From: Firmicutes bacterium UBA4795
Lineage (GTDB): Bacteria > Bacillota > Desulfotomaculia > Desulfotomaculales > Nap2-2B
Reading direction: 5' to 3'
NCBI GenBank assembly: GCA_002402825.1
Contig: DHGP01000027.1
Coordinates: forward strand, 104,307 to 168,306
Length of the DNA: 64,000 bases
The notes under the pieces were generated by a model, which saw only the letters and a list, made by a program, of their open reading frames with translations, was not told the DNA's origin and made no database searches. The position numbers and the translations under genes were made by a program. Position 1 is the first letter of the stretch; each line of letters starts with the position of its first letter. Positions 52,394-60,187 of this stretch are shown here, piece by piece.

Positions 52394-52421
52394 ATTATAA
52401 CCCGTATTTAGCATATGTCAA
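52394..52421 (-). promoter_or_regulatory. promoter S1 of the DUF5320 operon, carrying a half-conserved TTGACATATG operator
   Basis: The minus strand reads TTGACA TATGCTAAATACGGGT TATAAT (-35 at 52421-52416, 16-nt spacer, -10 at 52399-52394). Confidence 0.6.
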
Positions 52422-52422
52422 T

Positions 52423-52531
52423 AATATTTTTAAAGAAATTTAAAAATTTTTTAAAGGCCGTTATATTTTTGTTTCTTTTTATATCAAATATATTGACATA
52501 TGTCAAATATAAGCTATAATAAATTAGGATC
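52423..52531. repeat. 109-nt promoter-region repeat, copy A
   Basis: Aligns by eye with 56465-56573 with about 8 differences over 109 nt. It includes promoter S2. Confidence 0.85.
52493..52520 (+). promoter_or_regulatory. promoter S2 with the perfect palindrome TTGACATATGTCAA
   Basis: TTGACA at 52493-52498, the palindrome to 52506, a 16-nt spacer and TATAAT at 52515-52520. It is 50 nt upstream of the ATG at 52570. Confidence 0.65.
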
Positions 52532-52569
52532 AAATTGGCCAAAAAAAGTATAAGCAAAGGAGTATTTTT

Positions 52570-53784
52570 ATGCCTTTTGTTGCGGTTCATAACCCATTTA
52601 AATGTCTTCAGTGCAACTGGTGTAGTGAGATAGTGGACTGCCCTGGAGCAGATCAGGAATTTTGTATAGGTTGCGGAGCATGTGTCCTGGCCTGTCCTAA
52701 CAAGGCAATTAAACTTGTTCCCACGCCTAGAGAAAAAAAAGTGCTTATTGAAGTTGACGGCAACCCGGGCTGGGTGTCCGAAAAAATTAGCCTTAAAGAA
52801 GCGCTTATTGAGCTCGGCTACAAGATAAGTAATTTCCCGGAGGAAAAAGGTGTTTATTCACCTTGCGGGGTAGGCGGTTGCTGGAGTTGTACTCTGGAGG
52901 TTAATGGTGAGACCAAGAGGGCCTGTGTTACTCCGGTAGAAGAAGGGATGAGCATCAAAACCTCATTATCTAAGTCTGAGCCGCCAAAAAGGCTGGTGCT
53001 TGATTTTATGGGGCATCCTGTTGGCGGGGTCGGTACACCTTACCAGTTACGCTACCAAAATGGCTTATTTGTTGAAGCTGTTTGCTTGGCCGCAGGGTGT
53101 AACTTTAGGTGTCCTACCTGCTTTAATTGGAGCTATACCTACCAAGGAAAAGGCCGGCCGCTCACGCCAGGGGAGGCAGCTATTAATTTAACGGCAGTAA
53201 GAAAGGAACTTAATCTTAACCGGATGCTTATTTCTGGCGGTGAATGTACCTTAAACAGAGCGTGGCTGGTTCAATTTATCCAGAAATTAAAAGAACTTAA
53301 CCCAGATCCTCTGGCCTGCTTTCATATCCAAACCAACGGCTCGCTGCTTACCCCCAGCTATATAGATGAACTTGTAGAAGCTGGCCTGACGGATATTGGA
53401 ATAGATTTAAAAGGATTGGAAATAGACACATTTATGTGGATAACCGGCCTGCGGGATAAAGAATTAGCCAGGAAATATAAGGACAACGCATGGGAAGCAG
53501 TAAAATACCTGGTCAACAAATATCTGGATAAGGTATTCATAGGAATTGGCATTCCATATAATAAAGACTTGATTTCCTTTAAAGAGGTAGTGCAAATAGG
53601 CAAGCTTCTTTTTGAAATTAATCCTTTTTTACAAATTGGCGTGCTTAATTATAAGCCGGATTACCGCAGCAAGATTATACCTGCTACTTATGACGAAATG
53701 TTAGCCGTTTACCGGGCTTTAAAAGAAACTGGCTTGAAAACGGTCTTGGCTTGGGCAGAAGAAGGTGAGATTATTGGCCCGTAA
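52570..53784 (+). CDS. radical SAM enzyme (PflA/AmmeMemoRadiSam-like core) with N-terminal 2x[4Fe-4S] ferredoxin and 2Fe-2S-like domains
   Basis: 404 aa with CLQCNWC...CPG and CIGCGACVLACP, then SPCGVGGCWSC...C, then the radical-SAM motif GCNFRCPTCFNW and GGECTL. Confidence 0.8.
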   Translation: MPFVAVHNPFKCLQCNWCSEIVDCPGADQEFCIGCGACVLACPNKAIKLVPTPREKKVLIEVDGNPGWVSEKISLKEALIELGYKISNFPEEKGVYSPCGVGGCWSCTLEVNGETKRACVTPVEEGMSIKTSLSKSEPPKRLVLDFMGHPVGGVGTPYQLRYQNGLFVEAVCLAAGCNFRCPTCFNWSYTYQGKGRPLTPGEAAINLTAVRKELNLNRMLISGGECTLNRAWLVQFIQKLKELNPDPLACFHIQTNGSLLTPSYIDELVEAGLTDIGIDLKGLEIDTFMWITGLRDKELARKYKDNAWEAVKYLVNKYLDKVFIGIGIPYNKDLISFKEVVQIGKLLFEINPFLQIGVLNYKPDYRSKIIPATYDEMLAVYRALKETGLKTVLAWAEEGEIIGP

Positions 53785-53844
53785 CAAGAAACTGTTGAAA
53801 TTTCTTTTATATCAAACATATCAAAAAATACTTTAAAAGACATA

Positions 53845-53874
53845 TTGACATATGTCCAATTATTTTATTAAAAT
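53845..53874 (+). promoter_or_regulatory. promoter S3 with TTGACATATGTCCAA (palindrome with one extra base)
   Basis: TTGACA at 53845-53850 and TAAAAT at 53869-53874 (18-nt spacer), upstream of the C_GCAxxG_C_C gene. Confidence 0.5.
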
Positions 53875-53916
53875 ATTATTAATATTTTGAATAAAAAAAG
53901 AAAAGGAGGACAGATA

Positions 53917-58237: not shown

Positions 58238-58249
58238 AAGGGTAAATTT

Positions 58250-59071
58250 ATGGAGAAAAAATGGACAAAACTAACCCGAAAACTGGAAGCGCTTTTAAGG
58301 TTAAAAACCTTTCCCGTGGCGATAAAGCTGCTGGAAGACGAAAACGAAATGGCCAAAAATAAGTGGTTGCGCCGGCCGGAAAATAAGGTCACCCTTTGTC
58401 AGTTAATTACCCTGGTCCGTACCTTTGATTGGACGGTGGGTGCCACAGCCGCAGATTTAGCTTTTCCCATGTGCGCCAGCATTGTTGGTCTGGCTGAGCT
58501 GCCGGTTGAAATTAAAGATGGTACTTTTCGCCATCTTGTCTGGTGCAAAACAAAGGAAGAGGGCAGGAAATATGAAGAAGCAATTCCCCGCATTCCCCCA
58601 GGTAAATATCAAGCCATTATGATGGCCCCCTTAGTTTATCACCCTTTTGAACCTGACCTAGGATTAATTTACGCTAACCCGGCCCAAATGATCCTGCTGA
58701 TTAACGCCCTCCAGTTTGAAAATTACGAAAGGTTTCAGTTTTTTTGCGTGGGGGAAAGCTCTTGTGCCGATGCCATTGCCCAGGGCTATCTGTCCCAAAA
58801 ACCATCCCTTACCATTCCTTGCTACGGGGAAAGAAGATACGGTTATGCTCAAGATGATGAATTGGTAATGGCCCTTCCTCCTTCTTACCTGGAAAAAGCA
58901 GGGCAAAATTTAGAAGAACTTTACGCCCGAGGTATTCAATACCCTATTTCGTACGCTGGTGCCCAAATTGACCCTCTTCCCGCCATGCCCTTGAGTTACC
59001 AAAAAATATTTAAGGGTGAAAGTGTGGCTGATTTAACCATCCCCCGCCGCAAGATTACCCGCTGGGAATAA
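58250..59071 (+). CDS. DUF169-family protein
   Basis: 273 aa. The N-terminal LKTFPVAIKLLE box and the conserved Cys residues (CASIVG, CVGESSC, PCYGER) are consistent with DUF169 (COG2043) as I recall it. Confidence 0.6.
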   Translation: MEKKWTKLTRKLEALLRLKTFPVAIKLLEDENEMAKNKWLRRPENKVTLCQLITLVRTFDWTVGATAADLAFPMCASIVGLAELPVEIKDGTFRHLVWCKTKEEGRKYEEAIPRIPPGKYQAIMMAPLVYHPFEPDLGLIYANPAQMILLINALQFENYERFQFFCVGESSCADAIAQGYLSQKPSLTIPCYGERRYGYAQDDELVMALPPSYLEKAGQNLEELYARGIQYPISYAGAQIDPLPAMPLSYQKIFKGESVADLTIPRRKITRWE

Positions 59072-59090
59072 AATTAAGATAAAACTTGCA

Positions 59091-59855
59091 TTATCCTGGT
59101 CGGCGACGAATTGTTTCCGCTAAATTTAAAGGAGTAACTATTGGTTTAGTTGCCTCATATACCGTAGTTACTTTTTTCAGGGCAAGAAACTCCCTTTGAA
59201 TGGCGGCAATTTCCTCCTGACTTAGAGGTTTTACGGGGCAGGGACGTAAAGGCGTATTTATCTGCACTTCATCCGGAGCAATTTCTTTGGCCAATTGAGC
59301 CATTTCCCTGGCGTAGTCCTTGTTTGCCTGGACAAACATCATTTGCAAGGCTAGTTTTTCTTTATACCGCGCCCTAAATTGCCAAAGACCTTCTTTTATA
59401 TCGTTTAAAGATAATTCTGCCGCCGGTTGGTTAACTGTTTGAAAGACTTCTTCCCGGGAAGCATCTAATTTTGCTATTACTACATCAGCTTTAAGTAAGC
59501 TAAGGAGTACATCTTTATCCTTTAATAAGGCAGCATTGGTAAGTACAGCCACCGGAAGAGACAATATTTTTTTAACTAGCTCGATTGCTCCCTCTAAATT
59601 ACAGGCCAAAGTTGGTTCGCCCATACCAGAAAAAGTAGCATAATCTGCCCTAACTTTATCTTTTATTGTTTCTAGTTCAGCCTGCAATGGCGGTAAATCT
59701 ATACATTTTTCCCGCCTTATCTGTTTGTTAACCGTCCTTCCCAACTGACAGTACATACAGTCAAAAGGGCAGGTCTTTTCTCTAACCGATAAAAGGTCAA
59801 TGCCTAAAGACCTCCCCAATCGCCAGGAAGGAACCGGTCCGTAAACATAAACCAA
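59091..59855 (-). CDS. radical SAM protein (small, COG0731-like)
   Basis: 254 aa with the N-terminus VYGPVPSWRLGRSLGIDL and the CxxxCxxC cluster CPFDCMYCQLG. No SPASM-type C-terminal Cys cluster. Confidence 0.8.
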   Translation of the reverse strand: MVYVYGPVPSWRLGRSLGIDLLSVREKTCPFDCMYCQLGRTVNKQIRREKCIDLPPLQAELETIKDKVRADYATFSGMGEPTLACNLEGAIELVKKILSLPVAVLTNAALLKDKDVLLSLLKADVVIAKLDASREEVFQTVNQPAAELSLNDIKEGLWQFRARYKEKLALQMMFVQANKDYAREMAQLAKEIAPDEVQINTPLRPCPVKPLSQEEIAAIQREFLALKKVTTVYEATKPIVTPLNLAETIRRRPG

Positions 59856-59872
59856 AAAATCCCCTCCCTAAA

Positions 59873-60115
59873 TTACTTTCGGTGGCAGGTGTCGTTTGTA
59901 GAGCACGGCGGGGACGCACATCTTTCTTCTCTCCCGCAGCAAGTTGTACCTGGATTTTTATTAGAAGAACTTTTTATTATATAAGGAACAGATAAAAGAC
60001 GCTTAAAGTTTATACTTCCACAGCTAGGACAACTTGCCGGATAGGTTGTTGAATCGGGTAAGAGTGCTTCCCAAACATAAGCGCAATTTTCACATTTAAA
60101 ATCAAACATAGGCAT
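59873..60115 (-). CDS. FmdB-family zinc-ribbon protein (CxxC_CxxC_SSSS type) with a Cys-rich tail
   Basis: 80 aa. MPMFDFKCENCAYVWE...CPSCGS is the Zn ribbon. The tail is GTTCCGREERCASPPCSTNDTCHRK. Confidence 0.75.
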   Translation of the reverse strand: MPMFDFKCENCAYVWEALLPDSTTYPASCPSCGSINFKRLLSVPYIIKSSSNKNPGTTCCGREERCASPPCSTNDTCHRK

Positions 60116-60158
60116 AAGTGTTTCCTCCTTTCCTTTGCTTTATAAACTTATATAAATT

Positions 60159-60187
60159 ATTATTTCAAAGTATCGTGCATATGTCAA
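60159..60187 (-). promoter_or_regulatory. promoter S5 of the Zn-ribbon/radical-SAM operon with the half operator TTGACATATGCACG
   Basis: The minus strand reads TTGACA (60187-60182), a 17-nt spacer and AATAAT (60164-60159), about 45 nt upstream of the ATG at 60115. Confidence 0.5.

What the first reader, a model, noticed from the sequence alone, without database searches (positions are those of the whole stretch)
52394..60187. Five promoters share one -35-overlapping palindrome (TTGACATATGTCAA): a candidate undescribed regulon of redox/metallocofactor genes
Seen in the sequence:
- The 14-nt perfect palindrome TTGACATATGTCAA occurs at 52493-52506 and 56535-56548.
- TTGACATATGTCCAA occurs at 53845-53859.
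- One-arm versions occur on the other strand at 52408-52421 (TTGACATATGCTAA) and 60174-60187 (TTGACATATGCACG).
- Each time, the TTGACA arm sits 16-18 nt upstream of a -10-like hexamer (TATAAT three times, TAAAAT, AATAAT) and points into a transcription unit.

The five units are:
- the DUF5320...Mrp-XRE operon;
- the ferredoxin-radical-SAM gene;
- the C_GCAxxG_C_C gene;
- DUF2889-DUF2889-PHP-DUF169;
- the Zn-ribbon plus radical-SAM pair.

By eye I found no further full copy in the 64 kb. TTGACATAA strings near 17224 and 28915 lack the TATG and second arm.

Inference: a dimeric factor binding over the -35 co-regulates about 17 genes. Almost all of them are Cys-rich or FeS proteins of unknown function, sitting between the fdh/hyp cluster and feoB. 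Local candidate regulators are the XRE HTH gene (47802-48032, last gene of the S1 operon) and the FmdB-type Zn-ribbon protein. This would be a functional system that the current family names do not describe.
Basis: partly seen in the sequence, partly recalled or inferred. Interest (0 to 1): 0.8.

Follow-up and report, generated by a model that had tools for sequence, protein, structure and literature searches.

The report
Shared promoter operator in metalloprotein island
Five strong promoters in one 8-kb gene island of an uncultured Desulfotomaculum-like bacterium carry the same ~19-bp sequence over their -35 region, most likely the binding site of one still unidentified repressor; one of the five is a recent copy, and the proposed local regulator does not hold up.

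Summary
TATTGACATATG occurs exactly five times in 52.4-60.2 kb and nowhere else in the 64 kb (0.004 expected). Each time TTGACA lies 16-18 nt upstream of a -10-like hexamer and points into a gene.

The five are not independent. S2 and S4 lie in a 109-nt direct repeat. Three sister species show four ancestral promoters: S1/S4 divergent, S3 internal, S5.

All copies in the four species keep TATTGACATATG-Y-NN-AATA, while the rest of the spacers differs between promoter types. The perfect 14-bp palindrome exists only in S2/S4 and one ortholog. A second partial dyad, TATTG-N9-CAATA, fits the other sites better.

The 14-mer matches the published FNR-like box predicted for HcpR (wyTTGACnnnnGTCAArw). 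However, no CRP/FNR gene lies in the window, the centre ATAT is invariant, and no hcp link was found.

The XRE gene is a remnant or absent in relatives that keep every site. The DtxR-like repressor has its own IdeR-type boxes.

The S1 operon is an orp (orange-protein complex) cluster. S4 drives a four-gene module conserved across phyla. A Dehalococcoidia MAG has these genes on one strand behind the same motif.

Verdict: a plausible small, island-bound regulon with an unlinked repressor. It is a new member of a known kind, of moderate interest.

The parts
52394..52423 (-). S1 promoter of the orp-like operon. Minus strand reads TATTGACATATGCTAAATA, with TTGACA (52416-52421) 16 nt upstream of TATAAT (52394-52399).
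   Evidence: Orthologs in UBA9916, UBA2203 and SCADC-type genomes keep TATTGACATATGC.
52491..52520 (+). S2 promoter of the 404-aa Fer4/Fer2/radical-SAM gene. Perfect 14-bp palindrome at 52493-52506, 16 nt upstream of TATAAT.
   Evidence: It lies inside the 109-nt repeat, so it is a duplicate of S4 (D1).
52423..52531 (+). Left copy of the 109-nt direct repeat (period 4042 nt) that carries S2.
   Evidence: D1 (87% identity to 56465-56573). Sister genomes have DUF5320 and DUF2889 directly divergent with nothing between them.
56465..56573 (+). Right copy of the 109-nt direct repeat, carrying S4. Its left edge abuts the truncated Pyr_redox pseudogene.
53843..53874 (+). S3 promoter of the C_GCAxxG_C_C gene. 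Reads TATTGACATATGTCCAATTA, with TTGACA 18 nt upstream of TAAAAT. In relatives it is an internal promoter between DUF169 and C_GCAxxG, with TATAAT.
56533..56562 (+). S4 promoter of DUF2889-DUF2889-PHP-DUF169. Perfect palindrome at 56535-56548, 16 nt upstream of TATAAT.
   Evidence: Orthologs.
60159..60189 (-). S5 promoter of the FmdB-type Zn-ribbon plus radical-SAM pair. Reads TATTGACATATGCACGATA, with TTGACA 17 nt upstream of AATAAT. Relatives read TATTG-N9-CAATA exactly.
47802..52325 (-). S1 unit: DUF5320, Zn-ribbon (81 aa), ORP/MTH1175-like, second Nitro_FeMo-Co protein, two MinD/CbiA-Fer4 ATPases, Mrp/NUBPL-like, XRE (47802-48032). This is an orp-like cluster.
   Evidence: Pfam. PDB 2WFB 'ORP' at E 4.6e-22 and 1EO1 MTH1175 at E 1e-24.
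52570..53784 (+). S2 unit: 404-aa ferredoxin/2Fe-2S/radical-SAM protein, captured behind a copy of the S4 promoter.
   Evidence: In L007 the 87% ortholog sits behind the same promoter type plus decayed stumps of DUF2889b, PHP and DUF169.
53887..54456 (+). S3 unit: C_GCAxxG_C_C protein.
56601..59071 (+). S4 unit: DUF2889a, DUF2889b, PHP, DUF169. This four-gene module is conserved in 53-63 of 65 loci from several phyla.
59091..60115 (-). S5 unit: FmdB-type Zn-ribbon (59873-60115) and a 254-aa radical-SAM protein (59091-59855).
   Evidence: The same pair follows S5 in UBA9916 and UBA2203.
54535..54594 (-). 60-nt stump of a second copy of the 254-aa radical-SAM gene (last 29 nt plus codons 3-11). 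It is a scar of the segmental duplication that produced S2.
   Evidence: D14 (97%) and D15 (100%). In relatives C_GCAxxG is followed by the convergent radical-SAM gene.

Best explanation
The sites are the core of a small family of near-consensus sigma-70-type promoters. The family has four ancestral members plus one duplicate in this genome. Together they drive every transcription unit of one gene island: an orp-like metallocluster-protein operon, the DUF2889-DUF2889-PHP-DUF169 module, a C_GCAxxG protein, and a Zn-ribbon/radical-SAM pair.

Built into each promoter, from about -37 to -19, is a conserved ~19-bp element, TATTGACATATG-Y-NN-AATA. Its left end is the -35 hexamer. The most likely reading is that this element is the operator of one regulator encoded elsewhere in the genome.

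The element covers the -35 hexamer and most of the spacer of otherwise constitutive-looking promoters. A bound protein would therefore exclude RNA polymerase, so the regulator would be a repressor. The units would be de-repressed together, probably by a redox, metal or nitrosative signal.

S2 arose when a copy of the S4 promoter region was duplicated and came to lie in front of the 404-aa radical-SAM gene. That event drew the gene into the same control.

Shown: the element, its restriction to the island, its conservation across four species, the duplication history, the gene families, and the absence of a matching regulator gene in the window.

Inferred: protein binding, repression, the nature of the signal, and the family of the regulator. 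An FNR/CRP-type factor is one candidate, on motif resemblance only.
For: Statistics:
- Five exact copies of the 12-mer against 0.004 expected.
- They are the five best promoter matches in 46-64 kb.
- Control TTGACA promoters in the window lack both TATG and the AATA.

Conservation:
- In 16 distinct promoter copies from four species, columns -2..+9 are invariant apart from one base in L007. Columns +13..+16 (AATA) show 15, 14, 16 and 12 of 16.
- The other spacer columns differ between the S1, S3, S4 and S5 types.
- The DNA between S1 and S4 is largely replaced in the SCADC-type species, yet both cores are intact.

Outgroups:
- The Dehalococcoidia MAG L081 has TGGACATATGTCAATA about 30 nt upstream of DUF5320. 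That gene heads a same-strand run DUF5320-ORP-Mrp-DUF2889x2-PHP-...-DUF169-rSAM254.
- Bacillota MAG158 (L025) has GTTGACATATGTAAAA-N-TATTAT upstream of a ferredoxin plus cooS fragment, next to its own orp and DUF2889 clusters.

Specificity:
- The motif is seen only in the loci where orp-like genes adjoin the DUF2889 module.

Geometry:
- The -35 hexamer is the left arm, and the -10 hexamer starts 8-10 nt after the 14-mer.

Duplication:
-.
Against: - No binding protein is identified. No CRP/FNR, BlaI/CopY or other fitting regulator gene lies in the 64 kb, and precomputed Pfam calls list none among the genes of the next 10 kb.
- The promoters are paralogs and the four species are close (76-92% protein identity), so part of the conservation is shared descent.
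- Neither dyad is convincing. The 14-bp palindrome is perfect only in S2/S4 and one ortholog. The outer TATTG-N9-CAATA is perfect only in S5 of relatives and in L007. The invariant core is asymmetric.
- The L025 promoter is homologous to S3 over about 34 nt, and the L081 16-mer equals the S3 16-mer. The outgroup sites may therefore be inherited or transferred promoters rather than independent operator sites.
- About 55%-identical Bacillota relatives carry the DUF2889 module with no such motif.
- No expression data exist.
Confidence: 0.55

Rival explanations
1. There is no dedicated regulator. The five sites are simply paralogous copies of one strong promoter that spread inside the island by duplication. 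The shared bases beyond TTGACA are inherited sequence, or a local optimum for RNA polymerase (an extended -35 or spacer context).
For: - S2/S4 are a proven 109-nt duplication.
- S1 and S2 form a 45-nt inverted repeat at 71% (I1).
- S2, S3 and S4 share a further 22-nt upstream block (D5).
- L007, L025 and the window show the same promoter type in front of different genes, next to IS or transposase fragments and gene stumps.
- No regulator gene was found.
- TATTGACA also occurs in unrelated promoter-like sites (13439, 14122, 28913).
Against: - Between the S1, S3, S4 and S5 types, similarity collapses outside the 19-bp element, while inside it stays 100% at 12 positions in four species. Neutral descent would decay evenly.
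- TATG and AATA are not known polymerase contacts, and they are absent from the other strong promoters of the window.
- In L081 the perfect arm points away from the gene it precedes, which fits a symmetric protein site better than a promoter relic.
Confidence: 0.25
2. The regulator is the XRE-family HTH protein encoded as the last gene of the S1 operon (47802-48032). It would auto-repress S1 and repress S2-S5.
For: - It has a complete HTH_3 domain in 76 aa.
- Traces of the gene lie directly downstream of Mrp in three lineages: the window, UBA9916 and the SCADC type.
- Small Cro/CI-like dimers typically read 14-20-bp dyads (general knowledge).
Against: - In UBA9916 the start codon is ATA and homology stops after codon 34.
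- In SCADC-type L018 only residues 5-34 remain. In L016 and L017 there is nothing after Mrp.
- In L211-214 residues 1-70 are fused to a RibD C-terminal fragment.
- All these genomes keep every site intact.
- L081 and L025 have the motif but no XRE homolog in the DNA held.
Confidence: 0.08
3. The regulator is an FNR/CRP-family dimer of the HcpR1 type, encoded elsewhere. The element is its TTGAC-N4-GTCAA box, and the island belongs to a nitrosative or redox stress regulon.
For: - S2 and S4 match the published consensus wyTTGACnnnnGTCAArw at every specified position (PMC1274295; also atTTGAccnnggTCAAat, PMC545781).
- HcpR regulons are reported to include ferredoxin-like and other redox genes.
- A DUF169 gene affects nitrate fitness in D. 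alaskensis.
- This rival is a sub-case of the best explanation.
Against: - The centre ATAT is invariant, whereas it is N4 in the family.
- The right arm GTCAA agrees in only 69% of cells, against 81% for the alternative CAATA arm one to three bases further out.
- S1 and S5 have 3/5 and 1/5 of the right arm.
- The site centre lies near -28, not -41.5.
- No CRP/FNR gene is in the window, and none is among the called genes of the next 10 kb.
- The only 'Prismane' gene found behind such a site is a cooS fragment, not hcp.
- Exact copies of the 18-mer elsewhere in metagenomes sit next to unrelated genes.
Confidence: 0.15
4. The conserved bases are read by an alternative sigma factor, or by the FmdB-type Zn-ribbon protein of the S5 unit, rather than by a classical repressor.
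For: - The organism is a spore-former relative (SpoVS in the window) with several sigma factors (general knowledge).
- The Zn-ribbon gene is a conserved island member and also precedes the DUF2889 module in L025.
Against: - TTGACA/TATAAT at 16-18 nt is the housekeeping pattern.
- The element does not fit the recalled sigma-E, -F, -G or -K consensus sequences.
- No DNA-binding activity is documented for FmdB-type ribbons.
- In L025 the Zn-ribbon/DUF2889 promoter has no motif.
Confidence: 0.05

Closest known systems
FNR-like HcpR1 box wyTTGACnnnnGTCAArw (Rodionov et al. 2005, PMC1274295; 2004, PMC545781)
   Same: - S2 and S4 read (a/t)(t)TTGAC-ATAT-GTCAA(a/g)(t), identical to the consensus at every specified position.
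- The targets are redox and Fe-S proteins of strict anaerobes.
- Repression by sites that overlap core promoters was also predicted for HcpR.
   Different: - The centre is invariant here.
- The right arm is weakly conserved, and three of five sites are not 5-4-5 dyads.
- No CRP/FNR gene or hcp gene is in the DNA held.
- The site centre is near -28.
- The published motif is itself a prediction for delta-proteobacteria and cyanobacteria, not Peptococcaceae.
OrpR / sigma-54 control of the two divergent orp operons of Desulfovibrio vulgaris (Fievet et al. 2021, PMC8359166)
   Same: - The target genes are the same kind: ORP/MTH1175-like proteins and MinD-type ATPases with ferredoxin inserts, encoded in an anaerobe-specific cluster with divergent promoters sharing one palindromic site.
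- That regulon responds to redox potential.
   Different: - Here the promoters are sigma-70-type.
- There is no GGGCGYRTTTTGCGCCC site, no -24/-12 promoter in the intergenic regions, and no enhancer-binding protein gene.
- The element overlaps the promoter (repression geometry) instead of lying upstream (activation).
- The regulon extends to DUF2889-PHP-DUF169, C_GCAxxG and Zn-ribbon/radical-SAM genes.
Promoter propagation by duplication ('putative mobile promoters'; recalled from Matus-Garcia, Nijveen and van Passel 2012, not re-read here)
   Same: - A promoter segment (109 nt) is copied within the genome and ends up driving a different gene (S2 in front of the 404-aa radical-SAM gene).
- Related copies lie next to IS fragments in relatives.
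   Different: - Only one of the five sites is explained this way.
- The other four share just the 19-bp element and are stable in position across species.
Classical repressor operators over -35/-10 of strong promoters (LexA, Fur, DtxR/IdeR types)
   Same: - Near-consensus promoter with a conserved operator inside it, repeated in front of several units.
- The window itself holds such a case: IdeR-type boxes at 62304-62319 and 62933-62948.
   Different: The sequence fits none of these families' boxes.

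Membership tests
FNR/CRP-class box, HcpR1 type | 5-4-5 inverted repeat TTGAC-N4-GTCAA with w-y / r-w flanks | tested here: inconclusive
   Met exactly by S2, S4 and the UBA9916 S4. S3 needs a 1-nt insertion. S1 has 3/5 and S5 has 1/5 of the right arm. Over 16 copies the right arm agrees in 69% of cells.
FNR/CRP-class box, HcpR1 type | A CRP/FNR-family regulator (cNMP-binding plus HTH_Crp_2), often next to a target | tested here: not met
   No such gene among the ORFs of the 64-kb window (Pfam; tblastn). None among the called genes of the next 10 kb (precomputed Pfam). 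The rest of the genome could not be searched.
FNR/CRP-class box, HcpR1 type | Sites precede hcp and frdX, the core regulon | not testable with these tools
   No hcp gene is in any DNA held for this clade. The one 'Prismane' ORF behind a site (L025) is a CooS fragment.
FNR/CRP-class box, HcpR1 type | The central four bases are not conserved (N4) | tested here: not met
   ATAT is invariant in all 16 clade copies and in L025 and L081.
orp (orange protein complex) gene cluster | ORP / MTH1175-like small Nitro_FeMo-Co-domain protein | tested here: met
   Window 51206-51583 against PDB 2WFB 'ORP' gives E 4.6e-22, and against 1EO1 MTH1175 gives E 1e-24. A second paralog lies at 50792-51187.
orp (orange protein complex) gene cluster | MinD/ParA-type ATPases carrying a 4Fe-4S ferredoxin insert, in the same operon | tested here: met
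   48939-49799 and 49835-50785 match CbiA/ParA plus Fer4, and there is an Mrp/NUBPL-type ATPase as well. The composition of the Desulfovibrio cluster is from my own knowledge; the 2011 paper was not held.
orp (orange protein complex) gene cluster | Sigma-54 promoters activated by OrpR at GGGCGYRTTTTGCGCCC | tested here: not met
   No match with up to 3 mismatches. No -24/-12 match in the island's intergenic regions. No AAA+ enhancer-binding protein gene.
Auto-regulated XRE/Cro-type operator system | The regulator gene is kept wherever the operator is kept | tested here: not met
   XRE is intact only in the window species. It is a remnant in L014 and L018, absent in L016 and L017, and fused to RibD_C in L211-214. 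The sites are intact in all.
Duplicated (propagated) promoter | Identity extends well beyond the functional promoter elements | tested here: met
   Met for S2/S4 only: 109 nt at 87%. For S1, S3 and S5 against S4 the similarity is confined to the ~19-bp element.

The most novel reading that the evidence does not exclude
One unlinked sensor-regulator, of a family whose DNA motif has not been described (a 19-bp TATTGACATATG-Y-NN-AATA site), ties several units into a single co-regulated metallocluster assembly or repair system. [quoted passage not shown] The regulon grows by copying its promoter-operator cassette in front of new genes.
Probability: 0.25. Interest if true: 0.6.

Novelty: new member of a known kind. 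Interest (0 to 1): 0.4.

Why it matters
If the element is an operator, it gives a concrete, testable handle on several protein families with no known function: DUF2889, DUF169, DUF5320, C_GCAxxG_C_C and the ORP complex.

- It would show that they are switched together in Peptococcaceae, and that in a Dehalococcoidia MAG they lie on one strand as one apparent unit.
- It would show that the orp cluster, controlled by OrpR and sigma-54 in Desulfovibrio, is under a different control mechanism here.
- It documents one clear case of a gene being drawn into a regulon by duplication of a promoter-operator segment.

The organism belongs to the uncultured Peptococcaceae of methanogenic alkane-degrading enrichments, where any regulatory knowledge is scarce. 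The finding is not a new kind of system. It is a small lineage-restricted regulon candidate whose regulator is missing.

Tried and rejected
1. **XRE as regulator.** Rejected as unlikely because the gene decays in relatives that keep the sites.
2. **DtxR-like repressor (62387-62905).** Rejected. It has its own IdeR-type boxes at 62304-62319 and 62933-62948, and none of them resembles the element.
3. **An 'frdX-hcp behind the motif' link in L025.** I first took it as support for HcpR and then retracted it. The Prismane-family ORF is a fragment of CO dehydrogenase CooS, and the L025 promoter is homologous to S3 as a whole.
4. **OrpR palindrome and sigma-54 promoters.** Absent.
5. **BlaI/CopY 'KACAnnTGTM' reading of GACATATGTC, and sporulation-sigma -10 readings of CATATG.** Considered from memory. 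No such regulator gene is in the window, and S1/S5 break the TGT.
6. **TTGAC-N4-GTCAA boxes (up to 1 mismatch) in about 1 Mb of loci carrying the DUF2889 module.** Only L025 and L081 lie in promoter regions. L032:13483 lies between convergent genes, and the rest look like chance matches in coding DNA.
7. **Genome-collection scan with the 404-aa protein.** No close relative found.
8. **Metagenome scan for WYTTGACATATGTCAARW.** Hits are mostly intergenic (101 of 122 not inside an ORF of at least 150 aa) but sit next to unrelated genes. It gave no information on the regulator.
9. **Literature search for the motif string and for the DUF names.** Nothing on the motif. One lead on DUF169 and nitrate.
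10. **Helical phasing of S1 against S4.** Centre-to-centre distances of 85, 114, 113 and 116 bp in four species, so no conserved phase.

Full report
**1. Observation**

- TTGACATATGTCAA is exact at 52493-52506 and 56535-56548.
- One-mismatch and two-mismatch copies lie at 53845-53858 and 52408-52421.
- The 60174-60187 copy shares only the left arm.

A longer core, TATTGACATATG, is exact in all five sites and occurs nowhere else in the 64 kb. A first-order Markov model predicts 0.004 copies.

In a consensus scan of 46-64 kb the five sites are the five best sigma-70-type promoter matches. Three are TTGACA-16-TATAAT, one is 17-AATAAT and one is 18-TAAAAT, and each points into a gene. Other good TTGACA promoters of the window (14122, 47604, 55362 and others) lack the TATG that follows the hexamer. 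Pfam confirms the gene content of the five units.

**2. The five are not independent**

S2 and S4 sit in a 109-nt direct repeat (52423-52531 and 56465-56573, 87% identical, period 4042 nt). The organism is an uncultured Peptococcaceae. Cluster members are named 'Peptococcaceae bacterium SCADC1_2_3' and 'Desulfotomaculum sp.'. The same locus was assembled independently in ENA and JGI data.

Three sister species show the older layout.
- In UBA9916, UBA2203 and the SCADC type, DUF5320 and DUF2889 are directly divergent (S1 back to back with S4).
- In UBA9916 and UBA2203, C_GCAxxG follows DUF169 behind an internal promoter (S3), and the Zn-ribbon/radical-SAM pair converges on it from S5. The SCADC type shows the same S3 between DUF169 and C_GCAxxG, but no SCADC-type S5 was recovered.

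The window therefore carries an insertion or duplication of about 4 kb. It contains:
- a copy of the S4 promoter, now in front of the 404-aa radical-SAM gene;
- S3 with C_GCAxxG;
- a 60-nt stump of a second radical-SAM gene (54535-54594, D14/D15);
- a vapBC pair;
- a truncated Pyr_redox pseudogene that ends at the repeat edge.

A further relative (L007, 87% ortholog of the 404-aa gene) still shows the intermediate state. It has the same promoter type, then stumps of DUF2889b, PHP and DUF169, then the 404-aa gene, next to an IS-like ORF (the IS reading is by eye).

**3. What is conserved**

I stacked the 16 distinct promoter copies of the four species, numbering from the first T of TTGACA.
- Columns -2 to +9 are invariant, apart from one base in L007.
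- Column +10 is C or T.
- Columns +13 to +16 (AATA) are conserved again, at 15, 14, 16 and 12 of 16.
- The other spacer columns differ between the S1, S3, S4 and S5 types.

The shared element is therefore about 19 bp, TATTGACATATG-Y-NN-AATA, spanning roughly -37 to -19.

Two partial dyads overlap in it.
- The inner 14-bp palindrome is perfect only in S2, S4 and the UBA9916 S4.
- An outer TATTG-N9-CAATA is perfect in S5 of UBA9916 and UBA2203 and in L007, and matches 4/5 elsewhere.

The right arm agrees with GTCAA in 69% of cells and with CAATA in 81%. Which symmetry matters, if either, is open.

In the SCADC-type species the DNA between S1 and S4 has been largely replaced, yet both cores are intact. 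The species are close (76-92% protein identity), so conservation between orthologous promoters alone says little. The informative signal is the contrast between promoter types.

**4. Beyond the clade**

A scan of species-representative genomes with a DUF2889 profile returned 66 loci.
- DUF2889a-DUF2889b-PHP-DUF169 is a module kept in 53-63 of 65 of them. They come from Bacillota, Thermodesulfobacteriota, Chloroflexota and a Helarchaeota MAG.
- Orp-like genes adjoin the module only in the window's clade, in Bacillota MAG158 (L025) and in a Dehalococcoidia MAG (L081).
- These are also the only loci with the motif.

In L081, TGGACATATGTCAATA lies about 30 nt upstream of DUF5320. That gene heads a same-strand run DUF5320-ORP-Mrp-DUF2889x2-PHP-...-DUF169-rSAM254. 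The units that share the element in the window thus lie together on one strand there, apparently as one unit.

In L025, GTTGACATATGTAAAA followed by TATTAT precedes a small ferredoxin and a Prismane-family ORF. That ORF is a CooS fragment, not Hcp. The L025 promoter is homologous to S3 over about 34 nt, so it is not an independent site. L025's own orp and Zn-ribbon/DUF2889 promoters lack the motif. Other Bacillota relatives at about 55% identity have no motif upstream of DUF2889.

**5. Who binds it**

The window encodes only three plausible DNA-binding regulators: the XRE protein, a DtxR-like repressor and the VapB antitoxin. No CRP/FNR, BlaI/CopY or enhancer-binding protein is present in it, and precomputed Pfam calls list none among the genes of the 10 kb to the right.

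The DtxR-like protein has its own IdeR-type boxes in front of feoB and of itself.

The XRE gene is unstable.
- It is a start-less 34-codon remnant in UBA9916.
- It is a 30-codon remnant in one SCADC-type contig and is absent in two others.
- It is fused to a RibD C-terminal fragment in SCADC strains.

All of these genomes keep the sites, so XRE is an unlikely regulator. The regulator is probably encoded elsewhere.

**6. Comparison with known systems**

The 14-mer with its flanks equals the FNR-like consensus wyTTGACnnnnGTCAArw. That consensus was predicted for HcpR in Geobacter, Desulfuromonas, Desulfotalea and two cyanobacteria. This is a resemblance, not membership. The centre is invariant here, the right arm is weak, the centre of the site is near -28, and neither a CRP/FNR gene nor hcp was found.

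Exact copies of the 18-mer in metagenomes are mostly intergenic but lie next to unrelated genes: DAHP synthase and tadA in gut bacteria, an MFS transporter with an XRE gene, and a symporter with a winged-helix regulator. The sequence alone therefore does not name a regulator family.

The S1 operon is an orp cluster. Its ORP-like protein matches PDB 2WFB 'ORP' (E 4.6e-22) and MTH1175. In Desulfovibrio vulgaris the two divergent orp operons are activated by OrpR and sigma-54 at a GGGCGYRTTTTGCGCCC palindrome, in response to redox potential. None of these features is present here. The same kind of genes is under a different control mechanism.

**7. Mechanism proposed**

Shown:
- near-consensus housekeeping-type promoters;
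- a conserved 19-bp element covering the -35 hexamer and most of the spacer;
- restriction of the element to one island;
- duplication of one promoter copy in front of a new gene.

Inferred:
- a trans-encoded protein binds the element and blocks RNA polymerase (repression);
- a common signal releases all units;
- the signal concerns redox, metal or nitrosative stress, judged from the Fe-S and metallocluster nature of the products, the redox control of orp in Desulfovibrio, and a nitrate-fitness phenotype of a DUF169 gene.

I give this 0.55. The main rival, at 0.25, is that the shared bases are inherited promoter sequence with no dedicated regulator.

**8. Verdict**

However:
- it has four ancestral promoters, not five;
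- the palindrome is only partly real;
- the suggested local regulator is unlikely;
- part of the system (orp) and the motif class are already described.

It is a new member of a known kind, of moderate interest.

Noticed in passing
window 62304-62319 and 62933-62948: Two IdeR/DtxR-type boxes (GTTAGGCTTGCCTAAC, GTTAGGTATGCCTAAC) lie upstream of feoB and of the DtxR-like gene 62387-62905. This is a separate iron regulon next to the island.
   Followed up: partly
window 60291-62230: The feoB reading frame is broken. The G-domain N-terminus is in another frame upstream of a run of seven C (62217-62223). ENA and JGI gene calls give the same 607-aa product. In UBA2203 only an internal feoB fragment remains, beside an integrase fragment (L023 9491-10111).
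   Followed up: partly
window 54535-54594; L007 240-560; L212 1287-1396: Several 'gene stumps' keep only the first and last few codons of a gene while the interior is deleted. Examples are rSAM254 in the window; DUF2889b, PHP and DUF169 in L007; and Mrp in L212. The recurrence of this pattern is unexplained.
   Followed up: partly
window 55410-56466: A Pyr_redox_dim/rhodanese oxidoreductase gene is 5'-truncated and frameshifted. It ends exactly at the left edge of the 109-nt repeat.
   Followed up: no
L211-L214 (SCADC strains); L208 12622-15140: An ORF fuses XRE residues 1-70 to the C-terminal domain of RibD, followed by ADH and PTPS genes. In the window organism those genes lie about 19 kb to the right of XRE. 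The junction geometry fits a tandem duplication or a circle junction of the whole ~20-kb island segment.
   Followed up: partly
L022-L086 (66 loci), window 56601-59071: DUF2889a-DUF2889b-PHP-DUF169 is a four-gene module conserved across Bacillota, Thermodesulfobacteriota, Chloroflexota and a Helarchaeota MAG. No function is described in the literature searched.
   Followed up: partly
L088, L092, L093, L095, L100 and about 30 more metagenome loci: A recurrent non-coding element 'gtatttacTTGACATATGTCAAattgacggaaacgc' is found in many contigs of a few JGI samples, with no ORF of at least 80 aa within 250 nt. Its origin is unknown.
   Followed up: no
L099, L102, L106, L123 and about 13 more human-gut contigs: The same 14-bp palindrome forms the -35 region of a promoter between a tadA-like deaminase gene and a DAHP synthase gene.
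   Followed up: partly
window 54676-55297 and 12843-13791: Two toxin-antitoxin pairs: VapC(PIN)/VapB, and HepT/MNT nucleotidyltransferase. The vapBC pair lies inside the inserted 4-kb segment.
   Followed up: no
L010 16883-21218: In a Thermodesulfobacteriota contig the ortholog of the 404-aa radical-SAM gene lies 6 kb from a Crp-family regulator, a ferredoxin and a Prismane-family gene of over 630 aa (by length probably CooS). No TTGAC-N4-GTCAA box was found there.
   Followed up: partly
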